Translations under genes and position numbers: made by a program | The notes under the pieces: model-generated | Database searches by the model: none | Seen by the model: only the letters and a program-made list of their open reading frames with translations | What the model was told of the DNA's origin: nothing | Shown: piece after piece, positions 21,974 to 28,906 of the stretch | Position numbering within the stretch: position 1 is the stretch's first letter | Layout of the letters: every line of letters begins with the position of its first letter | Sequence record: OQ174504.1 | Source: Escherichia phage REP5 | Length of the DNA stretch: 64,000 nucleotides | Strand: one strand, 5' to 3'

Positions 21974-22174
21974 TTATTCAGAGTCTGTAGTAGTCTCTTC
22001 TTTCTTAACTTCGAACTTTGCATCAACAGCATCAAGAAGTGCATCCATAGATGCTTCTTTAATATCAATACCTGTTGCTACAGATAGTCTGTCTGCAATT
22101 GCCATGATAGTATTCTGCATAAACTCTAACTTCTTGTTAGCTTCATAAAGTTCTTTATAAACGTTCTCGCTCAT
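21974..22174 (-). CDS. small protein upstream of terminase
   Basis: 66-aa ORF with RBS. Confidence 0.3.
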   Translation of the reverse strand: MSENVYKELYEANKKLEFMQNTIMAIADRLSVATGIDIKEASMDALLDAVDAKFEVKKEETTTDSE

Positions 22175-22386
22175 TATGTTTTCTCCAAATAATTAATACT
22201 GTTTCCCCTTAAAAAAGACGGCACAGAGACCGTCAAGGAGAAACCACAATGTACGTCAGAGACATACTGTATAAGTCTTCCTATAAAGTATAACTCTGTA
22301 AAAAAGCCCTGTCTAAAAATACTCTTCGGTAGCGAAAGGAAGAATACTTATAGCAGGGCATTATTATTATTTTAATTGAGAGAGAG

Positions 22387-22462
22387 TAAAATAACTTGGA
22401 GAATCCGAAGGGACTCGAACCCTTATAAACCTGTTTTGCAGACAGGCACATATCCATTTCTG
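22387..22462 (-). tRNA. tRNA-Cys (GCA)
   Basis: Manual fold: acceptor GAATCCG/CGGATTC, anticodon stem CCTGT/ACAGG, loop CTGCAAA, T-loop TTCGAGT, encoded CCA. Confidence 0.6.
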
Positions 22463-22466
22463 TCAC

Positions 22467-22559
22467 GGATTCAAATTGGAGGAAGATACCAGACTTGAAC
22501 TGGTACACCGATTTCTCAGCTACTGGCAGTTTAGCAAACTGCTCCCTTACCTTTTAGGG
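22467..22559 (-). tRNA. tRNA-Ser (GCU), type II
   Basis: Acceptor GGAAGAT/ATCTTCC, anticodon stem GCAGT/ACTGC, loop TTGCTAA, long variable arm, CCA. Confidence 0.6.
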
Positions 22560-22570
22560 TTAATCTTCCA

Positions 22571-23305
22571 TTATTTCTGTAATGCGCTCTTCATTTCTGG
22601 TGTTGCAATAGTGTCAATTACACCAGTTTTACAAGCATCATCAAACCAGTCTGGTAAGATACCTGCTAAGAACCCATTGATATTCGTTTTAAGGTACTCT
22701 GCAATAAGGGCAGCTTCTTCTTCAATCATCTGCACAACTTCATCTGCATAAGCTGTAATCTTTGAGATACCTTCATTAATCTTGCTAACAGCTTGGTTAG
22801 CTAAATCAGAAACAGTATCAAGACCTTTATCAATAGCATCTTGTAAGTCACTTAATACATCATTAACACCGTCTAGTGCACTGTTCATCATGTCAATAGC
22901 TTTTTGACCATGTTCTGTAGCAACACCCATAATACCACTGAATGGTGTACAACCAACTTGTTCTCCTGCTGCACCCATAACATTGGAATACCCCTTTGCT
23001 ACCTGCATACGTGATGAAAACTCATCAATAGACTTTTGACCGTAGTCTGTTAGGGTCTTAGTAGTTGCTGTAGTGCTTGTAAGGCTTGTTGTAAAGCTGT
23101 TTAGAAGGACTGTTGTAAGTCCAGCAGCAACAAGTTTCTCCTTCATTGTAGGGTCTGTTACAGAACTAATAGAGCTTACAAGTGATGTAGAAGCAGCTAC
23201 GGTTCCACCGAGGACTGCTGCACCAGTAATAAGTGGGTTAGAAAACCCTTTACCGGTTTTTAAGAGATTAAAAATCTCCTTACCTTGTTCTGTCATCTCT
23301 TTCAT
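22571..23305 (-). CDS. hypothetical protein embedded in tRNA cluster
   Basis: ORF 22571..23368 trimmed to an internal Met to avoid overlap with tRNA-Phe. Confidence 0.35.
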   Translation of the reverse strand: MKEMTEQGKEIFNLLKTGKGFSNPLITGAAVLGGTVAASTSLVSSISSVTDPTMKEKLVAAGLTTVLLNSFTTSLTSTTATTKTLTDYGQKSIDEFSSRMQVAKGYSNVMGAAGEQVGCTPFSGIMGVATEHGQKAIDMMNSALDGVNDVLSDLQDAIDKGLDTVSDLANQAVSKINEGISKITAYADEVVQMIEEEAALIAEYLKTNINGFLAGILPDWFDDACKTGVIDTIATPEMKSALQK

Positions 23306-23323
23306 TAAGCACCTTTGAAATTG

Positions 23324-23398
23324 GTAGTCCAGTGGGATTTGAACCCTCTTCTCATGTTTTTCAGACACGCGCTTTAACCATATAAGCTACTTGGACTA
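23324..23398 (-). tRNA. tRNA-Phe (GAA)
   Basis: Acceptor TAGTCCA/TGGACTA, anticodon stem CGTGT/ACATG, loop CTGAAAA, T-loop TTCAAAT. Confidence 0.55.
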
Positions 23399-23403
23399 TA
23401 AAT

Positions 23404-23479
23404 TGGGGTGACCTACGGGATTTGAACCCGTATAGACCATGTTCACAGCATGGGTCATTACCATTTATGATAAGGCCAC
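23404..23479 (-). tRNA. tRNA-His (GUG)
   Basis: D-stem TCAT/ATGA, anticodon stem CCATG/CATGG, loop CTGTGAA, CCA. Confidence 0.6.
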
Positions 23480-23510
23480 ATTTAAGGATTCTCGTAAGAA
23501 CCCTTAGAAG

Positions 23511-23586
23511 TGGCAGCGGCATAAGGATTTGAACCTTAATAGGACAGCTTCAGAGACTGTTGCATTGCCAGTTATGCTATACCGCT
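23511..23586 (-). tRNA. tRNA-Gln (CUG)
   Basis: D-stem GCAT/ATGC, anticodon stem ACAGT/GCTGT, loop CTCTGAA, T-arm TAAGG-TTCAAAT-CCTTA. Confidence 0.55.
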
Positions 23587-23591
23587 AAATT

Positions 23592-23670
23592 TGGTACTCC
23601 ATATCGGATTCGAACCGATACATAACACAGATTTTAAGTCTGGCCTCTCTGCCAATTGGAGTAATGGAGC
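23592..23670 (-). tRNA. tRNA with anticodon UAA (Leu-type) but short variable arm
   Basis: Anticodon helix CAGA/TCTG with loop CTTAAAA; Leu-like D-arm CCAATTGGCAGAG; A73; T-arm ATCGG-TTCGAAT-CCGAT; no long extra arm. Confidence 0.45.
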
Positions 23671-23672
23671 AT

Positions 23673-23748
23673 TGGCGGGGGATGTTGGAATTGAACCAAC
23701 TTCTTCGATTTCAAAGACCGAGGTTTTAACCTTGTAAACTAATCCCCT
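23673..23748 (-). tRNA. tRNA-Gln (UUG)
   Basis: Anticodon stem TCGGT/ATCGA, loop CTTTGAA, T-arm GTTGG-TTCAATT-CCAAC. Confidence 0.5.
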
Positions 23749-23756
23749 TTAAATCT

Positions 23757-24314
23757 TTACTTTCTCAGTGGATGAATAAAGAATGCCAACATAACTCTTT
23801 CCCTTGAGAATGCTCTTTCTTCTGGGACAACGCTTTTTAGTTTCCATCCAATATAAATTCTCCAGTAAAACTGTTTACCAAAGACTTTAATTGATGGGAT
23901 AAAAGCGAATAATCCCCAAGCATTACTGTTCCACATTAGGAGATAACCAGTCTGATTATCTTCAGGGTCAGAACTTACGTTGATATTACCTTTCCACTTA
24001 GTAACATCTTTTACATCTCTTCCTAATACATGGTAAGAGAAGTTATAAGCTTTGTTTCTCCAGAGCCACCCAACTCTCTGCATATAGACACCAAGCTTAC
24101 CAATCTTTCTAATTTTAGCCCATCGTTTAACGTGACCTTCATCACCATCAATTGGGTTGTCATATGTCTCCATCCATCTGAAGCCGAAAGGTAAGTGTCC
24201 TTTCTTCTCACTGTAAAATGGAACTACGAAAGGTGCTAAGATAACTGCTAAGATTGCTGCAAATGGCTCTAACAAAGCTAATAAAATCCATGAAGCATAC
24301 TTCAAATATCTCAT
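23757..24314 (-). CDS. membrane protein embedded in tRNA cluster
   Basis: 185-aa ORF with hydrophobic N-terminus ILLALLEPFAAILAVILAPFVVPF. Confidence 0.4.
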   Translation of the reverse strand: MRYLKYASWILLALLEPFAAILAVILAPFVVPFYSEKKGHLPFGFRWMETYDNPIDGDEGHVKRWAKIRKIGKLGVYMQRVGWLWRNKAYNFSYHVLGRDVKDVTKWKGNINVSSDPEDNQTGYLLMWNSNAWGLFAFIPSIKVFGKQFYWRIYIGWKLKSVVPEERAFSRERVMLAFFIHPLRK

Positions 24315-24333
24315 CTAAATAGCCTCTTTAAAT

Positions 24334-24409
24334 TGGCGCAGGATAAGGGATTCGAACCCCTATTAACAGCTTCGTAGACTGTTGCTCTATCCATTTGAAC
24401 TAATCCTGC
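24334..24409 (-). tRNA. tRNA-Arg (ACG)
   Basis: Acceptor GCAGGAT/ATCCTGC, anticodon stem ACAGT/GCTGT, loop CTACGAA. Confidence 0.6.
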
Positions 24410-24414
24410 AAAAT

Positions 24415-24492
24415 TGGTGTTCCAAGACGGATTCGAACCGTCACTAGTACAAGGTTTGAGCTTGCATCCTCTGCCAATTGGGATACTGGAAC
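24415..24492 (-). tRNA. tRNA with anticodon CAA (Leu-type) but short variable arm
   Basis: Anticodon stem GCAAG/CTTGT, loop CTCAAAC; D-arm CCAATTGGCAGAGG; A73. Confidence 0.45.
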
Positions 24493-24493
24493 A

Positions 24494-24568
24494 TGGTACT
24501 CACTAAAGGACTTGAACCTTTTTCTTCATCTTGTAAGGGTGGTGTTTTACCATATAAACTAAGCGAGT
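24494..24568 (-). tRNA. tRNA-Val (UAC)-like, weak anticodon stem
   Basis: Loop CTTACAA; anticodon stem CCACC/GATGA has two C-A mismatches; acceptor and T-arm intact. Confidence 0.4.
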
Positions 24569-24571
24569 ATG

Positions 24572-24658
24572 AAAGAGGTCTGAAGTTGTGCCGCTAACTC
24601 AACTCCGTGGAATTTGTTACGGTCTTCAGTTGACACCAGCGGTCTTTCACTTGACCTC
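24572..24658 (-). ncRNA. tRNA-like structured element / possible pseudo-tRNA
   Basis: 7-bp terminal helix AGAGGTC/GACCTCT enclosing ~73 nt with internal hairpins but no canonical T-loop. Confidence 0.2.
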
Positions 24659-24663
24659 TGAAT

Positions 24664-24740
24664 TGGTGCTGCTCACAGGACTCGAACCCGCATTTCCATC
24701 CTTACAAGGGATGTGTAATAGCCAATTATACGAAAGCAGC
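24664..24740 (-). tRNA. tRNA-Thr (UGU)
   Basis: Anticodon stem CATCC/GGATG, loop CTTGTAA. Confidence 0.6.
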
Positions 24741-24747
24741 ATTAATT

Positions 24748-24822
24748 TGGAGCATCCAGAGGGAATCGAACCCTCAACCTCAGTTTGGAAGACTGTAATT
24801 TTCCCGTTTAAACTATGGATGC
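24748..24822 (-). tRNA. tRNA-Gly (UCC)
   Basis: Acceptor GCATCCA/TGGATGC, loop CTTCCAA. Confidence 0.6.
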
Positions 24823-24828
24823 ACTAAT

Positions 24829-24904
24829 TGGTGGAGAAGCAGGGAATTGAACCCTGTACTTAAGTTTGCAAAACTTATGTTTTAACCATGTAAACTACAT
24901 CCCC
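24829..24904 (-). tRNA. tRNA-Ala (UGC)
   Basis: Anticodon stem TAAGT/ACTTA, loop TTTGCAA; G3-U70 wobble pair present. Confidence 0.6.
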
Positions 24905-24910
24905 AATGTC

Positions 24911-24986
24911 TGGTACAGGTGGAGGGAATTGAACCCATCGTCTTACTGATTAAGAGTCAGCCGCATAACCATTTTGCTACACCTGC
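24911..24986 (-). tRNA. tRNA-Lys (CUU)
   Basis: Anticodon stem GCTGA/TCAGT, loop CTCTTAA. Confidence 0.5.
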
Positions 24987-24993
24987 ATTAATT

Positions 24994-25071
24994 TGGTAGG
25001 AGACAAGGGATTCGAACCCTCAAACATCTCGTTCTAAGCGAGATAGGTTTACCAATTACCGTCAATCTCCC
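24994..25071 (-). tRNA. tRNA with anticodon UAG (Leu-type) but short variable arm
   Basis: Anticodon stem TCTCG/CGAGA, loop CTTAGAA; D-arm GTAATTGGTAAAC; A73; 5-nt variable region. Confidence 0.45.
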
Positions 25072-25316
25072 ATTAAGTCTTTTTAGAGAACTTCTAAGAA
25101 CCTAAGCAACAAGGTTCCACAACAAGCTGTAATAACCTTAGAAGCCCTCTAAAAAGACCTAAAAAGGTCTTTGCATAGTCTTGTTTAATCCGGTGACTAG
25201 AACCTTTGGAGAGCTTGATATTATCTCTTCTCCGTGACACCTACTAGGTGTTTTATCAATGTGTACAACAATACACGCGGTATACCAAAGCAACATCCGA
25301 ATGAAGCTTGGCTTTA

Positions 25317-25406
25317 AATCTTATTAGGCGGTAAGTAAAGGAGTCGAACCCTCACCGTATCTCTACAGTGGCAACTGTTTTCAAGACAGTTTGGCTACCA
25401 TTAGCC
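25317..25406 (-). tRNA. tRNA-Ser (UGA), type II
   Basis: Anticodon stem ACTGT/ACAGT, loop CTTGAAA, ~20-nt variable arm, T-loop TTCGACT. Confidence 0.55.
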
Positions 25407-25429
25407 GCTACCTACCCCTAATAAGACTT

Positions 25430-25512
25430 TGGCATGGGACGGAGGAGTTGAACCCCTTTGAAACGGTGTTGGAAGCCGTTGCTCATGCCTTAGAGTCTTA
25501 ACATCGTCCCAT
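25430..25512 (-). tRNA. atypical tRNA-like gene (Gly-UCC-like loop with 2-nt expansion)
   Basis: Acceptor ATGGGAC/GTCCCAT with CCA; T-arm AGGGG-TTCAACT-CCTCC; anticodon helix ACGG/CCGT enclosing 9-nt loop CTTCCAACA. Confidence 0.3.
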
Positions 25513-25644
25513 ACTATAATTCGAAGCTTACCGTATTATCTCAACACTGTAAAGCCCCTTCTCAGATTATTTACATGTTCTGGAAAACATGAGATACAGA
25601 CCACCTCCCTACAGGAAGACCCGCTTAGGTCGTCTAAGTAATCT

Positions 25645-25721
25645 GCTAACTATTTGGCACACCCTACAGGATTCGAACCTGTAACTCAATGATTAGAAGT
25701 CATTTGCTCTGTCCAGTTGAA
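25645..25721 (-). tRNA. tRNA-Arg (UCU)
   Basis: Anticodon stem AATGA/TCATT, loop CTTCTAA. Confidence 0.6.
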
Positions 25722-25934
25722 CTAAGGGTGCATTAATCTTTAAAGACTCTCTTAGAAAGCCCTTAAAGATGCCCACCTTATTAATCATACCGTGGGCTAG
25801 TACGCCAAATTCTTTGATGAGGGATTGGAAGACCTCACTGGTGTTTAGCCTATCAAGCTACTGCCAGAAAAACATTGTCGTTTGCATTTATTTTAAATTT
25901 GCAAAATAGACGCTACGCAACGAAAACTAAGGTT

Positions 25935-25963
25935 ACTATAAAGTGGTCACATCTCAGTGTCAA
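25935..25963 (-). promoter_or_regulatory. sigma70-like promoter inside tRNA cluster
   Basis: Minus-strand TTGACA, 17-nt spacer, TATAGT; points leftward into a ~200-nt leader then tRNA-Arg(UCU). Confidence 0.4.
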
Positions 25964-25978
25964 CAACTTTATTGAAAT

Positions 25979-26054
25979 TGGTACTGTGAGAAGGATTCGA
26001 ACCTTCTGCCTTTCGGTTATCAGCCGAATGCACATCCATATGTGCTTTCACAGC
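25979..26054 (-). tRNA. tRNA-Ile (GAU)
   Basis: D-stem GCAC/GTGC, anticodon stem TTCGG/CCGAA, loop CTGATAA. Confidence 0.6.
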
Positions 26055-26056
26055 TT

Positions 26057-26133
26057 TGGAGGTTCAGATGGGAATCGAACCCACATTCATAGGGCTTATG
26101 AGACCCTTGCATTACCTTATCTGCGACTGAACC
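26057..26133 (-). tRNA. tRNA-Met (CAU)
   Basis: Acceptor GGTTCAG/CTGAACC, anticodon stem AGGGT/GCCCT, loop CTCATAA. Confidence 0.55.
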
Positions 26134-26137
26134 ATTT

Positions 26138-26213
26138 TGGTAGAAGTGGAGGGATTCGAACCCATCGCCTGTCAGATTAAAAGTCTGCCGCATCACCATT
26201 CTGCTACACTTCC
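26138..26213 (-). tRNA. tRNA-Lys (UUU)
   Basis: Anticodon helix GCAG/CTGA-type with loop CTTTTAA; T-loop TTCGAAT; CCA. Confidence 0.55.
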
Positions 26214-26217
26214 ATTA

Positions 26218-26361
26218 AATTATCTTTGTAGATAAGCTACCCAGACTTGCTTAAGGTCTGTAGCGATGTGCCTTGTTGGGTTTAAATCTAGAATTTACCC
26301 TTTCACCCTTTGTGGTCGCATACTCACAGGTAAGCTTAATAACTTATCTACAAAGATAATT
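26218..26361. repeat. 19-bp perfect inverted repeat (AATTATCTTTGTAGATAAG) flanking ~106 bp
   Basis: Left arm 26218-26236 is the exact reverse complement of right arm 26343-26361. Confidence 0.6.
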
Positions 26362-26400
26362 ACCAGACCGTTGTTTATCATCTTAAGTGCTACCATTACA

Positions 26401-26440
26401 CCAACTCGACATCTGCCGAGTGAAGGAATCGAACCTTCAC
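26401..26440 (-). pseudogene. tRNA remnant (3' half only)
   Basis: Intact T-arm GAAGG-TTCGATT-CCTTC and acceptor-like 3' strand, but no complementary 5' acceptor found upstream. Confidence 0.25.
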
Positions 26441-26474
26441 CTTTTCTTTACCGGAGAAATAGATTGTTTAAGTT

Positions 26475-26497
26475 TTGCTGTAAACGGTCTTCTGTAA
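26475..26497. repeat. tRNA-cluster repeat element, copy 1
   Basis: TTGCTGTAAACGGTCTTCTGTAAA. Confidence 0.55.
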
Positions 26498-26563
26498 ATT
26501 TGTTGAGCCAGACCAAGTTTTAAATTTTTCAAAATTAAATTGGCTTGAAATTTTCATACGTTC

Positions 26564-26586
26564 TTGCTGTATTTGGTCTTCTGCTC
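26564..26586. repeat. tRNA-cluster repeat element, copy 2 (diverged)
   Basis: TTGCTGTATTTGGTCTTCTGCTC. Confidence 0.45.
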
Positions 26587-26643
26587 CTTTAAAGAATACT
26601 CGTAAGAACTCTTTAAGGGAGGGGCTAAATAGCCCTCTCAAAA

Positions 26644-26729
26644 TTGGCGGCTACGATGAGACTTGAACTCACATCATCTCCCAATATCCTTTTACGTGGG
26701 AGTATTTTAACCAAATTAAACTACATAAC
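26644..26729 (-). tRNA. type II tRNA, anticodon unresolved (possibly degenerate)
   Basis: 86 nt; acceptor GGTTATG/CGTAGCC with CCA; T-arm GTGAG-TTCAAGT-CTCAT; Leu-like D-arm; anticodon region CACGTAAAA with only a 3-bp stem. Confidence 0.35.
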
Positions 26730-26734
26730 CTTTA

Positions 26735-26822
26735 TTGGTGTGCCGTGTAGGAGTCGAACCTACCGAGTCTCAATGACAAGGGATTTACAGTCCCCACCGC
26801 TACCATCTACGGGATAACGACA
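26735..26822 (-). tRNA. tRNA-Tyr (GUA), type II
   Basis: Anticodon stem GGGGA/TCCCT, loop CTGTAAA, long variable arm, T-arm GTAGG-TTCGACT-CCTAC, CCA. Confidence 0.55.
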
Positions 26823-26830
26823 CATTTAAA

Positions 26831-26906
26831 TTTGCGGTTAGTCAGGGATTCGAACCCTGTGCCATTCGCTTAACAGGCGACCGCACATACCTTATGTGCT
26901 TCCTAA
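26831..26906 (-). tRNA. tRNA-Asn (GUU)
   Basis: D-stem GCAC/GTGC, anticodon stem GTCGC/GCGAA (one mismatch), loop CTGTTAA. Confidence 0.55.
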
Positions 26907-26966
26907 CCATATTTAGTATTACCAGACCGTATCTTTCAATTTTTTCCGCTAAAAATTTGATAAGTG

Positions 26967-26990
26967 TTGCTGTAAACGGTCTTCTGTAAA
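26967..26990. repeat. tRNA-cluster repeat element, copy 3
   Basis: TTGCTGTAAACGGTCTTCTGTAAA, directly abutting the 3' end of the tRNA at 26992. Confidence 0.55.
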
Positions 26991-26991
26991 A

Positions 26992-27068
26992 TTGGAGGCG
27001 GGTGCAGGAGTCGAACCTGCCGATACCATGCTAATGAGACATGTGAGACGCCCTTTCTCTATACCCGC
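26992..27068 (-). tRNA. second CAU-anticodon tRNA (Met, fMet or Ile2)
   Basis: D-stem GAGA/TCTC, anticodon stem CATGT/GCATG, loop CTCATTA; 1-72 mismatch. Confidence 0.5.
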
Positions 27069-27133
27069 AATTCTTAATGACCAGACCAAATCTCTTCTTT
27101 GTCCGATTTACCTTCAGATGAATAAGATTAAGT

Positions 27134-27157
27134 TTGCTGTAATTGGTCTTCTGTCAA
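27134..27157. repeat. tRNA-cluster repeat element, copy 4
   Basis: TTGCTGTAATTGGTCTTCTGTCAA, abutting the 3' end of tRNA-Glu. Confidence 0.5.
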
Positions 27158-27160
27158 AAC

Positions 27161-27238
27161 TGGCGTTCCAGAAGGGATTTGAACCCTCAGATATCCACTT
27201 TGAAAGAGTGGTGACTATACCATTTTGTCTACTGGAAC
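27161..27238 (-). tRNA. tRNA-Glu (UUC)
   Basis: Acceptor GTTCCAG/CTGGAAC, anticodon stem CCACT/AGTGG, loop CTTTCAA. Confidence 0.6.
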
Positions 27239-27245
27239 ATTAATT

Positions 27246-27325
27246 TGGTCTCCGTTGAAGGATTTGAACCCTCGACCCCTTGCTCCCAAAGCAAGTGCTG
27301 CTAAACCAAACTGAGCTAAACGGAG
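27246..27325 (-). tRNA. tRNA-Pro (UGG)
   Basis: Anticodon stem CTTGC/GCAAG, loop TTTGGGA, T-arm GAGGG-TTCAAAT-CCTTC, CCA. Confidence 0.55.
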
Positions 27326-27449
27326 ATAAACTTTTCAAACTCTATGTAACCACTTTAACATTATTTTTTAGTGGTTGTCAAGAACTTTTTTAAAATATTT
27401 TTCAGTATCTTAGAAAAGCTCTCATTTCGTTTCTATGTAGAACATATTA

Positions 27450-27490
27450 AAGGGTATTAAACACATTGTCAATACCCTTTTTAAAACTTT
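27450..27490. terminator. terminator-like hairpin downstream of vWA-like gene
   Basis: Hairpin AGGGTATT...AATACCCT; T-run is clear on plus orientation, weaker on minus. Confidence 0.4.
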
Positions 27491-28906
27491 TTACCAGATG
27501 TAACGGTCAATCGTTACTGCTTTGAGCATTACGCTGATTGGGTCAAACTTCTCACCACCAAGCAGAGCTTTTAAAGTGGCTGGAGAGAACCCTGATACCA
27601 TTGCTACACCGTTATCCTTAACAGATACTTCGCAAGTACCATTACGGTTTGCTAAGTACCAGAATACCAGTTGTGGCATCTCATATCCAGCTTTTTTGTA
27701 CTTACTCTGAATTGCTTCAAAGTTTGTACGACCGTTAGCTCCATCAACCTGATTGAACTCCATATCGGAGAAGATGATAAGCTTACTTGGCATATCTTTC
27801 TGAGTCAAGTTGTTTCTCTTACCTGTCTCAAGGATGCGGTCAAAAGCTGCTTGTAAGTTAGTTGAACCATATTCAACATGTCGCATCACCTGACGGTGAC
27901 GGTTCTTTAAATCGCCACTCAGTTCGATGAAATGAGGGTTTGTTGAATAAACCATTAACTCGTTCTTAAAGCAACCTGTATTGCGTTCTGCTACATACAA
28001 GGCAAGTGATACACCAATATCAAGGGCAGTAATTGAGCCAAAATTCACCCAAGACATTGAACTTGAAACATCAGACATACATAGAATGTTTTCACCCTCT
28101 GCCATCCAGTTTGGTAGTGCTTTCCACTGCTCATTAGCAACATCTGCATTACCATACTTAACAGATTTAATCACATCGTATGGATAAACAGCACCAGCGT
28201 TAATCTTAGTCTCACCCTTTGATAAGGACTCGATGTAAGCTTTGTAACGCTCTCCATCTTTACGGTTAAACAGTTTTTGGTAACGTGCAGCAGCAAGTGA
28301 AGGAATCTTACTGTAGTCAATATTACCAAACTCATTAGCAGAGATTTTTTGCTCAACTGTATCAGATAGTGCAGACAATAGTGTGCGGTACTCTTTCTCA
28401 CTCAAGTTGGCAAACTTGCAGAAACGTTTTACAAACTGCTTATGACGTGGTTTGACTCGTGGTAACCACTTAGCTGCTAAACCTGCTGTTGCAGGGTCTA
28501 GTAAAGCTGCTTCTAAATGTTTGAAGGCATCTGTCTCGAAACGAGTACCTACAAAGATTTTGAAGTCATCAAAACGACCAAGTTCTGCAATCTTATCCAT
28601 AATGCGAAGAACCTGCGTAGGCTCTAAAACTTTATCTTCAATCGCTTGAAGTAAAACAGTTCGGAAAGCTTTACGCTCACCCATACCCTCTCGTACATCT
28701 CGCATATGCAGTAAAATACGAACTGCAACATCAACATCCTCATGCAAAGCTTTGTAGAACAAGTCTGGTAAGATTTCTACATTGCTACGGCTAGAACCAG
28801 CAGCTTTGTAAAAGTCCACAAGAGCAGACATTGATGAAGTATGGTTTACAGCACCATTTTCAGTTCGACCTGCATGAAGGTGCGCATGTTTAAATAACTC
28901 GCTCAT
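27491..28906 (-). CDS. vWA-like (DUF2828-type) protein
   Basis: 471-aa ORF; MIDAS-like DxSxS motif in CMSDVSSSM. Confidence 0.5.
   Translation of the reverse strand: MSELFKHAHLHAGRTENGAVNHTSSMSALVDFYKAAGSSRSNVEILPDLFYKALHEDVDVAVRILLHMRDVREGMGERKAFRTVLLQAIEDKVLEPTQVLRIMDKIAELGRFDDFKIFVGTRFETDAFKHLEAALLDPATAGLAAKWLPRVKPRHKQFVKRFCKFANLSEKEYRTLLSALSDTVEQKISANEFGNIDYSKIPSLAAARYQKLFNRKDGERYKAYIESLSKGETKINAGAVYPYDVIKSVKYGNADVANEQWKALPNWMAEGENILCMSDVSSSMSWVNFGSITALDIGVSLALYVAERNTGCFKNELMVYSTNPHFIELSGDLKNRHRQVMRHVEYGSTNLQAAFDRILETGKRNNLTQKDMPSKLIIFSDMEFNQVDGANGRTNFEAIQSKYKKAGYEMPQLVFWYLANRNGTCEVSVKDNGVAMVSGFSPATLKALLGGEKFDPISVMLKAVTIDRYIW

What the first reader, a model, noticed from the sequence alone, without database searches (positions are those of the whole stretch)
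26218..26361. Perfect 19-bp inverted repeat flanking ~106 bp inside the tRNA island
AATTATCTTTGTAGATAAG at 26218-26236 is the exact reverse complement of 26343-26361. The enclosed segment has no tRNA fold. A perfect IR of this length is unlikely by chance in about 5 kb and resembles either the long stem of a structured RNA or the ends of a miniature mobile element.
Basis: seen in the sequence. Interest (0 to 1): 0.4.

Follow-up and report, generated by a model that had tools for sequence, protein, structure and literature searches.

The report
Stem of phage Y-RNA-like noncoding RNA
The inverted repeat is the closing stem of a conserved, unannotated ~144-nt structured RNA in the tRNA operon of a Felix O1-like phage, sitting beside tRNA-mimicking "Y RNA"-type modules just downstream of a Ro60-like anti-defence gene, so it is probably an RNA partner of that protein rather than a mobile element.

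Summary
The repeat is real: 26218-26236 and 26343-26361 are perfectly complementary over 19 bp. It reaches 22 bp if a G·U pair is allowed, which works only on the minus strand, the tRNA-sense strand. The window is identical to Escherichia phage REP6 (Felixounavirus).

Every Ounavirinae relative examined has a 140-146 nt element at this site, and no empty site was found. There is one copy per genome and none in E. coli genomes. Two sequence types exist, and the stem is kept between them by compensatory changes and a paired deletion. The internal hairpins also covary. The overlapping plus-strand ORF is frameshifted in close relatives. This points to a structured RNA, not a MITE, a gene or a tRNA.

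Context supports a Ro60 link. The gene directly upstream of the tRNA operon (27491-28906) has a Ro60/TROVE-like fold. Directly 5' of the element is a circularly permuted tRNA mimic with YrlA-like architecture. Related RNAs lie beside homologous genes in distant phages. One hairpin of the element carries the same sequence signature as the four Y-like modules.

I infer a lineage-specific Y-RNA-type RNA. Binding and function are untested.

The parts
26340..26361 (-). P1, 5' strand of the closing stem in RNA sense (AAUUAUCUUUGUAGAUAAGUUA).
   Evidence: Covariation with 26218-26239 is shown.
26218..26239 (-). P1, 3' strand of the closing stem (UAGCUUAUCUACAAAGAUAAUU). It is followed by UUAAU and then tRNA-Lys.
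26329..26339 (-). Junction J1/2. It contains GCUUA, which is complementary to UAAGC in the P4 loop and is a candidate pseudoknot.
   Evidence: GCUUA/UAAGC in type A becomes GCUAA/UUAGC in type B. The pairing is 5/5 in 18 of 20 sequences. This rests on one compensatory event only.
26307..26330 (-). P2 hairpin (CCUGUG...CACAAAGG).
   Evidence: MFE fold. Support is weak. The type-B counterpart has 5 bp and is broken in 3 of 10 sequences.
26278..26300 (-). P3 hairpin with the invariant loop AUUCUAGAUU, which contains the palindromic hexamer UCUAGA.
   Evidence: The columns are invariant in A3. The type-B outer helix P3a covaries at 3 positions. UCUAGA is present in 20 of 20 sequences.
26237..26263 (-). 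P4 hairpin (CUACAGACC UUAAGCAA GUCUGGGUAG). It carries the AGACC-AGCAA-GUCUGG signature shared with the four Y-like modules.
   Evidence: G-C to A-U covariation. The signature occurs only 5 times in the 64-kb window, all on the minus strand.
26359..26495 (-). Adjacent YrlA-like permuted tRNA mimic (module 4). Order: closing helix AGACCGUU/AACGGUCU, UACAGCAA motif, V hairpin, T arm, closed acceptor hairpin, D arm.
26504..26584 (-). Short Y-like module 3. It has the same closing helix and the CAGCAA motif but no tRNA-like core.
26918..26987 (-). Short Y-like module 2, between tRNA-Met and tRNA-Asn.
27077..27154 (-). Short Y-like module 1, between tRNA-Glu and tRNA-Met.
27491..28906 (-). Ro60/TROVE-like protein gene (Pfam DUF2828 + DUF7788), the ortholog of Bas63 gp130. 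It is the first gene upstream of the tRNA operon.
   Evidence: plus PMC11482910.
26138..26213 (-). tRNA-Lys(UUU). Its 5' end lies 5 nt 3' of P1. RNase P cleavage there would create the 3' end of the element; this is an inference.
27352..27472 (-). Two sigma-70-like promoter matches upstream of tRNA-Pro. They are the likely start of the transcription unit that contains the element.
   Evidence: consensus matches only.

Best explanation
SHOWN: The inverted repeat is helix P1 (22 bp including one G·U) of a ~144-nt RNA encoded on the minus strand, the strand of the tRNAs. The RNA folds as a four-way junction. P1 encloses three hairpins: P2, P3 with an invariant AUUCUAGAUU loop, and P4 with a UUWAGCAA loop. 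It is conserved at the same site in Felixounavirus, Mooglevirus and Suspvirus in two sequence types, and its helices are maintained by compensatory change. It lies inside a tRNA polycistron about 1.1 kb downstream of, and on the same strand as, a gene whose predicted fold is Ro60/TROVE+vWA. It directly abuts a circularly permuted tRNA mimic with YrlA architecture. Relatives of that mimic accompany homologous genes in distant phages. INFERRED: The element is released from the precursor by RNase P cleavage of tRNA-Lys 5 nt downstream. The long terminal stem with its short tail would protect it from 3' exonucleases. It acts as a lineage-specific Y-RNA-type partner or regulator of the phage Ro60-like protein. 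P4 would be the protein-recognition hairpin, because it repeats the AGACC/GGUCU helix plus AGCAA signature of the four neighbouring Y-like modules. The conserved P3 loop would be an effector-docking or dimerisation surface.
For: Stem conservation: P1 is 97.7% paired over 20 distinct sequences. Three pairs changed on both sides (U-A to C-G twice, G-C to C-G). One base pair is deleted on both sides together. Several A-U to G·U changes are tolerated only on the minus strand. Internal helices: P4 shows G-C to A-U, and P3a covaries at 3 positions. Strand: the element's covariance model scores 140.5 bits on the minus strand and 41.3 on the plus strand. Site occupancy: a query made of the two joined flanks matches every relative in two pieces about 140 nt apart, so no empty site exists. 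Coding: the plus-strand ORF is frameshifted in L014, L015 and L027 and absent in type B. Neighbouring protein: its AF2 model (pLDDT 88) has its ten best PDB matches all to Ro60/TROVE chains, E 2e-8 to 1e-4. The same similarity, and a role against the Ppl defence system, was published for the Bas63 ortholog gp130 (PMC11482910). Adjacent module: it has the YrlA order of arms described in PMC4201824. Its closed acceptor hairpin has three different complementary versions. Model R1 finds full-length relatives on the gene's strand next to DUF2828 genes in about 12 distant loci. On that alignment 24 of 29 pairs changed on both sides, and 95% of cells pair against about 40% in slid controls. Signature: AGACC-N(1-8)-AGCAA...G(G/T)TCTGG occurs 5 times in 64 kb, namely the four modules and P4. 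Precedent: Thermus phage phiLo Ro60 binds two phage-encoded Y-like RNAs (PMC12135203).
Against: No transcript or binding data exist for this element. The element lacks the motifs that define known Ro60 ligands (GGUCCGA, GNCGAAN0-1G/CGAA). It has no tRNA-like T/AS/D core. Model R1 does not detect P4 even with filters off, so the P4 resemblance rests on a pattern I defined after seeing the sequences. The element is absent next to YrlA-like RNAs in more distant phages, so it is not an obligatory partner. Bas63 gp130 alone, moved into T7 or expressed from a plasmid, counters Ppl, so phage RNAs are not needed for that activity. Most covariation separates just two sequence types, which means few independent events. 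The alignment used for the distant tRNA-mimic family was fitted to the model.
Confidence: 0.5

Rival explanations
1. The long duplex is mainly a processing and stability device. It would be an RNase III-type cleavage site or a 3'-terminal protective hairpin. It would separate the non-tRNA spacer RNA from tRNA-Lys and shield the spacer from 3' exonucleases, with no specific role for the interior.
For: A 22-bp near-perfect duplex is the length class that RNase III cuts (established knowledge). The stem ends 5 nt before an RNase P site. A second long stem at 25073-25162 has the same UUAAU spacing before tRNA-Leu. Shorter hairpins precede other tRNAs in the island.
Against: The interior is not free to drift. 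AUUCUAGAUU and the P4 loop are invariant or nearly so across both types. The internal helices P3a and P4 covary. Overall size is held at 140-146 nt.
Confidence: 0.2
2. It is an independent phage small RNA unrelated to the Ro60-like protein. It could be a decoy or sponge for a host nuclease or defence sensor, or a regulator acting by base pairing. Its place in the tRNA operon would simply provide expression.
For: The structure is conserved. There is no Ro60-binding consensus in the element. It is restricted to one phage subfamily. No Rfam family matches.
Against: It abuts a YrlA-like module and shares the AGACC-AGCAA-GUCUGG signature that otherwise marks only the four Y-like modules in 64 kb. 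It lies on the same strand within 1.1 kb of the Ro60-like gene, which is the criterion used to find Y RNAs (PMC4201824).
Confidence: 0.2
3. It is a miniature inverted-repeat mobile element, or a remnant of one, inserted between a tRNA-like gene and tRNA-Lys.
For: It has terminal inverted repeats of 19-22 bp and a compact size. HNH homing endonuclease genes are inserted elsewhere in this tRNA region in some relatives.
Against: No empty site exists in Felixounavirus, Mooglevirus or Suspvirus. There is a single copy per genome (198 places in 195 records). Nothing matches in E. coli genomes. There is no clear target-site duplication. The arms co-vary, including a paired deletion.
Confidence: 0.03
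4. It is a DNA-level element (a cruciform, origin or protein-binding palindrome), or the annotated plus-strand ORF (Felix O1 ORF94, skuden_68, bas63_0138) is a real gene.
For: The plus strand also folds well (-44.8 kcal/mol, z -4.8). An 85-codon ORF spans 26266-26523 and is annotated as a CDS in several records.
Against: Seven stem positions carry G·U on the minus strand, which is C·A in the plus strand and breaks DNA symmetry. The ORF is cut to 21-30 codons by 1-2 nt indels in L014, L015 and L027. It ends in two different frames in other relatives and is absent in type B.
Confidence: 0.03

Closest known systems
Bacterial and phage Y RNAs of the YrlA/YrlB type (Chen et al. 2014, PMC4201824)
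   Same: They are encoded within a few kb of a Ro60-type gene and on its strand. Several RNAs sit in tandem and are processed from one precursor. The 5' and 3' ends pair into a terminal stem that encloses hairpins. The immediately adjacent module (26359-26495) has the full YrlA order: stem, V, T, closed acceptor, D, stem.
   Different: The inverted-repeat element itself has no T/AS/D tRNA-like core and no GNCGAAN0-1G motif. The partner protein belongs to Pfam DUF2828/DUF7788, not the annotated TROVE family. The RNAs are embedded in a tRNA operon. The conserved motif of the neighbouring modules is UYCAGCAA.
Yrl1 and Yrl2 of Thermus phage phiLo with phiRo60 (PMC12135203; PDB 9KOP, 9L5Y)
   Same: This is a phage-encoded Ro60 homolog with phage-encoded stem-bulge-stem RNAs beside the gene. 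9KOP is the best structural match of the window's protein.
   Different: The phiLo RNAs were picked by their CGAA motif and lie upstream of the gene. The element here lacks CGAA, is larger, and is a four-way junction closed by a 22-bp stem.
Bas63 gp130 (PhageMaP preprint, PMC11482910)
   Same: It is the orthologous gene in a Felixounavirus. It is Ro60-like by structure and counters the Ppl defence. The authors suggested that some 'tRNA genes' downstream are Y RNAs.
   Different: No RNA was identified there. In Bas63 the element and the tRNA mimic are annotated as CDS bas63_0138 and bas63_0137. gp130 works without them in T7.
Small stable RNAs (species 1 and 2, rnaD/rnaC) of the phage T4 tRNA cluster (from memory, not tested here)
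   Same: They are structured RNAs of about 120-140 nt and unknown function, co-transcribed and co-processed with phage tRNAs.
   Different: No sequence comparison was made. To my knowledge T4 has no Ro60-like gene next to its tRNA cluster.
RNase III processing stems that bracket rRNAs in bacterial rRNA operons (established knowledge)
   Same: A long duplex is formed by sequences flanking an RNA inside a polycistronic stable-RNA precursor.
   Different: Here the enclosed RNA is about 100 nt with its own conserved junction. Cleavage has not been shown.

Membership tests
Y RNA / YrlA-type Ro60-associated ncRNA | Encoded within about 4 kb of a Ro60/TROVE gene, on the same strand. | tested here: met
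   The element (26218-26361, minus strand) lies 1.1 kb downstream of 27491-28906 (minus strand). The ten best PDB fold matches of that protein are all Ro60/TROVE. The criterion is taken from PMC4201824.
Y RNA / YrlA-type Ro60-associated ncRNA | The 5' and 3' ends pair into a terminal stem that encloses an internal loop or hairpins. | tested here: met
   P1 is 22 bp, 97.7% paired, and shows compensatory changes. It closes a four-way junction.
Y RNA / YrlA-type Ro60-associated ncRNA | A Ro60-binding sequence is present (GGUCCGA in animals; GNCGAAN0-1G/CGAA in bacteria and phage phiLo). | tested here: not met
   There is no CGAA or GGUCCGA in the window's element (read). Only some type-B relatives have GCCGAAG. 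P4 carries a different signature (AGACC-AGCAA-GUCUGG) shared with the neighbouring modules.
Y RNA / YrlA-type Ro60-associated ncRNA | A tRNA-like domain is present (T arm, closed acceptor stem, D arm). | tested here: not met
   It is absent from the element: ARAGORN, Rfam and R1 with filters off find nothing. It is met by the adjacent module 26359-26495.
Y RNA / YrlA-type Ro60-associated ncRNA | The RNA physically binds the Ro60 protein. | not testable with these tools
   This needs RIP/CLIP or EMSA.
Any Rfam 15 family | The covariance model matches. | tested here: not met
   No hit over 26218-26361 at E<=10. The distant YrlA-like relatives also have no Rfam hit at gathering score.
MITE / miniature mobile element | Several copies, and occupied versus empty sites among relatives. 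| tested here: not met
   There is one place per record, one hit per genome with R2, no empty site, and no E. coli copy.
MITE / miniature mobile element | A target-site duplication flanks the terminal repeats. | tested here: inconclusive
   The flanks are ...CATTA | element | ACCAG... with no direct repeat. A palindromic duplication hidden in the outermost AATT cannot be excluded.
RNase III processing stem | A near-perfect duplex of about two helical turns. | tested here: met
   22 bp including one G·U.
RNase III processing stem | Staggered cleavage in vivo that depends on rnc. | not testable with these tools
   This needs end mapping in wild-type and rnc hosts.
tRNA | Cloverleaf with an anticodon. 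| tested here: not met
Intrinsic terminator | A G+C-rich hairpin followed by a U run. | tested here: not met
   The scan finds none on the minus strand here. The stem is followed by UUAAUGG.
Protein-coding gene (Felix O1 ORF94 and equivalents) | The reading frame is conserved among relatives. | tested here: not met
   Frameshifts and truncations in L014, L015 and L027, two alternative C-termini, and absence in type B.

The most novel reading that the evidence does not exclude
The roughly 1-kb stretch 26218-27154 is an array of five Y-type RNAs that program the phage's Ro60-like anti-defence protein: three short modules, one YrlA-like tRNA mimic, and the inverted-repeat RNA. The inverted-repeat RNA would be a new class of Ro60 ligand. 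In it the protein-binding hairpin (P4) is internal, a 22-bp terminal stem makes the RNA exonuclease-proof, and the invariant palindromic UCUAGA loop mediates kissing-loop dimerisation or recruits a host nuclease. The result would be a higher-order RNP like the phiLo Ro60 dimer or RYPER complexes.
Probability: 0.15. Interest if true: 0.8.

Novelty: new variant of a known kind. Interest (0 to 1): 0.6.

Why it matters
Ro60-Y RNA particles are well studied in animals and a few bacteria, but their role in phages is only starting to be explored. A 2024 preprint showed that the Felixounavirus Ro60-like protein gp130 defeats the Ppl defence and guessed that Y RNAs hide among the downstream "tRNA genes". 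This analysis names concrete candidates with coordinates and structures: a YrlA-like tRNA mimic family that travels with DUF2828 genes across distant phages, three short modules, and the inverted-repeat RNA. All can be tested directly by RIP, EMSA and deletion. It also corrects spurious CDS annotations present in many Felix O1-like genomes. Finally, it ties a large Pfam "domain of unknown function" family found in tRNA-rich phages to an RNA partner.

Tried and rejected
- Rfam at E<=1 over 22000-28000 and at E<=10 over 26200-26660 gave no family for the element.
- A sequence search of the neighbouring protein against PDB chains and NCBIfam gave nothing. Only the fold search revealed Ro60.
- The empty-site search with joined flanks found none.
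- The E. coli genome search found no match.
- The element's covariance model R2 found only Ounavirinae copies, both in 75 distant DUF2828 loci and in 22 loci retrieved with a loose core pattern.
- A search for comparable long stems beside the distant YrlA-like RNAs found a maximum of 12 bp.
- The idea that the module next to the element is a genuine permuted tRNA gene that yields a functional tRNA was set aside. Its acceptor stem is closed by a loop, and its anticodon-like loop is 6 nt in Felix O1 and unrelated in Moogle.
- An alternative pairing of ACGGUCUGG with the P4 5' strand was rejected, because type B changes P4 without compensation there.
- A hammerhead-like reading of CCGAUGA in type B was rejected, because the core does not fit and Rfam is silent.
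- Literature searches for transcript data on Felix O1-like phages found none.
- The PhageMaP text has no data for genes 137/138, and no supplements are held.

Full report
**1. The observation**

The sequence at 26218-26236 (AATTATCTTTGTAGATAAG) is the exact reverse complement of 26343-26361. The repeat finder extends the arms to 26218-26239 and 26340-26361: 22 nt with one mismatch and 100 nt between them. The mismatch is C·A on the plus strand, so it is G·U on the minus strand. In 200 shuffles of the 6-kb island, the longest perfect inverted repeat with a spacer of 200 nt or less was 14 bp, against 19 observed.

**2. Where the window comes from**

The window is 100% identical to Escherichia phage REP6/REP7, a Felixounavirus of the Felix O1 group. 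Twenty-five tRNA genes lie on the minus strand between 22.4 and 27.3 kb. The repeat lies in a 431-nt gap between a tRNA-Asp homolog (26645-26730) and tRNA-Lys(UUU) (26138-26213). It ends 5 nt before tRNA-Lys.

**3. Not a mobile element, gene, tRNA or terminator**

- *Copy number.* A 152-nt query covering the element finds 195 phage records, with essentially one place per record. No E. coli genome has it.
- *Empty site.* A query made by joining the two flanks matches every relative in two pieces about 140 nt apart. This includes Mooglevirus and Suspvirus, where the element's sequence is too diverged for blastn. No empty site exists.
- *Coding.* The plus-strand ORF is annotated as a hypothetical protein in Felix O1 (ORF94), skuden and Bas63. 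It is cut to 21-30 codons by 1-2 nt indels in three close relatives. It ends in two different frames in others and is absent from the second sequence type.
- *tRNA.* ARAGORN and Rfam find nothing in the element.
- *Terminator.* No U run follows the stem.

**4. It is a structured RNA on the tRNA strand**

Twenty distinct versions were collected from GenBank and IMG/VR. They fall into two types:
- Type A: Felix O1, REP6, wV8, EC6 and others.
- Type B: pSJ21, Moogle, Michonne, Sf13-19, SUSP2, KMM4 and others.

The flanks are nearly identical between types, while the interior is heavily diverged. The length stays at 140-146 nt.

For P1, 97.7% of cells pair. Three pairs changed on both sides (U-A to C-G twice, G-C to C-G). 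One base pair is deleted on both sides together. Seven positions carry G·U, which would be C·A on the plus strand. Sliding the partner columns by 1-3 drops pairing to 25-47%.

The P4 hairpin switches G-C to A-U. Within type B alone, RNAalifold recovers P1, P2, a two-part P3 and P4, with three covarying positions in P3a.

The P3 loop AUUCUAGAUU is invariant in all 20 sequences. The junction sequence GCUUA (type A) or GCUAA (type B) is complementary to the P4 loop UAAGC or UUAGC. This is a candidate pseudoknot, but it rests on one compensatory event.

The element's covariance model scores 140.5 bits on the minus strand and 41.3 on the plus strand.

One caveat applies. Most double changes separate just the two types, so the number of independent events is small.

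**5. The neighbourhood gives the likely meaning**

*(a) The upstream gene.* The first gene upstream of the tRNA operon, on the same strand, is 27491-28906. It matches Pfam DUF2828 + DUF7788 and PHROG 850 "RNA-binding protein". An AlphaFold model built on 33 homologs (pLDDT 88, pTM 0.88) has its ten best PDB matches all to Ro60/TROVE proteins over the full length. These include Thermus phage phiLo Ro60, Xenopus and human Ro60, and Deinococcus Rsr. The Bas63 ortholog gp130 was independently reported as Ro60-like and as a counter of the Ppl defence. Those authors speculated that some downstream "tRNAs" are Y RNAs (PMC11482910).

*(b) The adjacent tRNA mimic.* Immediately 5' of the element in RNA sense, 26359-26495 folds in every relative into:
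- a closing helix (AGACCGUU/AACGGUCU),
- a UACAGCAA motif,
- a variable hairpin,
- a T arm (GAAGG UUCGAUU CCUUC),
- an acceptor-like stem closed by a loop,
- a D arm (GUGU AAUGGUA GCAC).

This is the order described for YrlA, the tRNA-mimicking Y RNA: stem, V, T, AS, D, stem (PMC4201824). The closed acceptor hairpin exists in three mutually complementary versions: ACUCGGC/GUCGAGU, ACACG/CGUGU and ACCCUUC/GAAGGGU.

A covariance model of this module (R1) finds full-length relatives in about 12 of 75 distant phage loci that were retrieved only through their DUF2828 gene. The hits are always on the gene's strand and often within a few hundred bases of it. On that model-fitted alignment, 24 of 29 pairs changed on both sides. 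Pairing is 95%, against about 40% in slid controls. These hits are not tRNAs by ARAGORN or Rfam.

*(c) Three shorter modules.* Three further modules at 27077-27154, 26918-26987 and 26504-26584 share the same closing helix and the CAGCAA motif. Their variable positions covary between paralogs (GACCAA/UUGGUC versus GACCGU/ACGGUC).

*(d) The shared signature.* The composite signature AGACC, 1-8 nt, AGCAA, then up to 160 nt, then G(G/T)TCTGG occurs five times in the 64-kb window. All five are on the minus strand. They are the four modules and the P4 hairpin of the inverted-repeat element. I defined this pattern after seeing the sequences. My rough hand estimate of the chance expectation is about 0.1 per window.

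**6. Interpretation**

*Shown:* a conserved structured RNA domain closed by the repeat, in tRNA sense, inside a cluster of Y-type RNAs, downstream of a Ro60-like gene.

*Inferred:*
- It is cut out of the precursor by RNase P acting on tRNA-Lys.
- It is made stable by its long terminal stem.
- It serves the Ro60-like protein as a lineage-specific Y-type RNA, with P4 as the recognition hairpin.

*Against this reading:*
- The element lacks the known Ro60-binding motifs and a tRNA-like core.
- R1 does not detect P4.
- The element is missing from more distant phages that have the tRNA mimic. One example is L042, where the mimic abuts tRNA-Gly directly.
- gp130 alone suffices against Ppl in T7.

The main rivals are two. 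The first is a processing and stability stem, supported by a second long stem at 25073-25162 with the same spacing before tRNA-Leu. The second is an unrelated small RNA.

**7. Comparison and novelty**

The closest known systems are YrlA/YrlB with bacterial and mycobacteriophage Ro60, and Yrl1/Yrl2 with phiLo Ro60 (PMC12135203). The element meets the context and terminal-stem criteria. It fails the motif and tRNA-domain criteria. I therefore describe it as working like a Y RNA, not as a member of the YrlA family.

I found no paper or Rfam family that describes it or the DUF2828-associated tRNA mimics. The only prior statement is the speculation in the PhageMaP preprint.

**8. Verdict**

The structured-RNA reading is supported and the mobile-element reading is rejected. 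The function as a Ro60-like-associated RNA is plausible but untested.

Noticed in passing
window 26359-26495 (-); L063:10362-10486, L112:7790-7923, L054:2583-2724, L058:5823-5946, L091:7398-7520 and others: A circularly permuted tRNA mimic with YrlA architecture: closing helix, UYCAGCAA, V, T arm, closed acceptor hairpin, D arm. Relatives lie next to DUF2828 (Ro60-like) genes in distant uncultured phages, on the same strand, with strong covariation. They are not in Rfam and are not called as tRNA.
   Followed up: yes
window 27491-28906 (-): A DUF2828+DUF7788 protein annotated only as 'RNA-binding protein'. Its predicted fold matches Ro60/TROVE+vWA. In many of the 52 homologous loci scanned for tRNAs, the gene sits directly upstream of a tRNA array.
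   Followed up: yes
window 27077-27154, 26918-26987, 26504-26584 (-): Three short spacer RNAs bracketed by CAGAAGACC-NNN-UACAGCAA and (A/U)(C/U)GGUCUGG. The bracket positions covary between paralogs. They look like minimal Y-like modules without a tRNA core.
   Followed up: partly
window 26645-26730 (-): In REP6 the tRNA-Asp(GUC) of relatives has its anticodon loop CUGUCAC replaced by a 13-nt loop (CGUAAAAGGAUAU) on a 6-bp stem. ARAGORN misses it and REP6 annotates it as 'tRNA-OTHER'. It could be a disabled tRNA or an anticodon-loop variant that escapes an anticodon nuclease.
   Followed up: partly
window 25073-25162 (-): A second long-stem element (about 25 bp stem, 38-nt interior containing AUUACAGCUU). 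It ends with the same UUAAU spacer directly before tRNA-Leu(UAG) and is conserved in relatives. An AGACC/GGUCU mini-hairpin overlaps its 5' arm.
   Followed up: partly
window 25430-25513 (-): An unannotated tRNA-like sequence ending in CCA. It has a 9-bp acceptor-like stem, a T-like arm (GGGGUUCAACUCCUC) and an anticodon-like arm with a 9-nt loop. Neither ARAGORN nor Rfam calls it.
   Followed up: no
L010, L011 versus L006 (V hairpin of the tRNA mimic; window equivalent 26443-26459): The 7-nt anticodon-like loop of the V hairpin reads CUGGUAA in the Sf19 group but CUUAUAA in ESh20 and Sf16. It is CCGGUAA in REP6, a 6-nt CGGUAA in Felix O1, and unrelated in Moogle. U33- and A37-like positions are kept in some lineages only.
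   Followed up: no
window 23481-23505, 25739-25763, 26589-26613: A repeated hairpin (UUAAAGRNUCUUACGAGNAUYCUUUAA-like) occurs three times, twice directly 5' of a tRNA and once just after tRNA-Asp. It may be a processing or stability signal of the tRNA operon.
   Followed up: no
window 26284-26295 (-): The invariant P3 loop contains the self-complementary hexamer UCUAGA. This could allow kissing-loop dimerisation of the RNA.
   Followed up: no
L002 753-983, L003 753-983, L117 3034-3144 and 3156-3308: GenBank records annotate plus-strand 'hypothetical protein' CDSs over the element and the tRNA mimic (Felix O1 ORF94, skuden_68, bas63_0138, bas63_0137). These are very likely spurious.
   Followed up: yes
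L062:11822-12176, L072:12119-12479, L076:12694-13067, L089:12356-12709: In several distant phages a phage-encoded tmRNA gene lies about 5 kb downstream of the DUF2828 gene, on the same strand.
   Followed up: no
L058:11696-11922: Rfam group I intron match (71.5 bits) in a phage locus that also carries the DUF2828 gene and a YrlA-like RNA.
   Followed up: no
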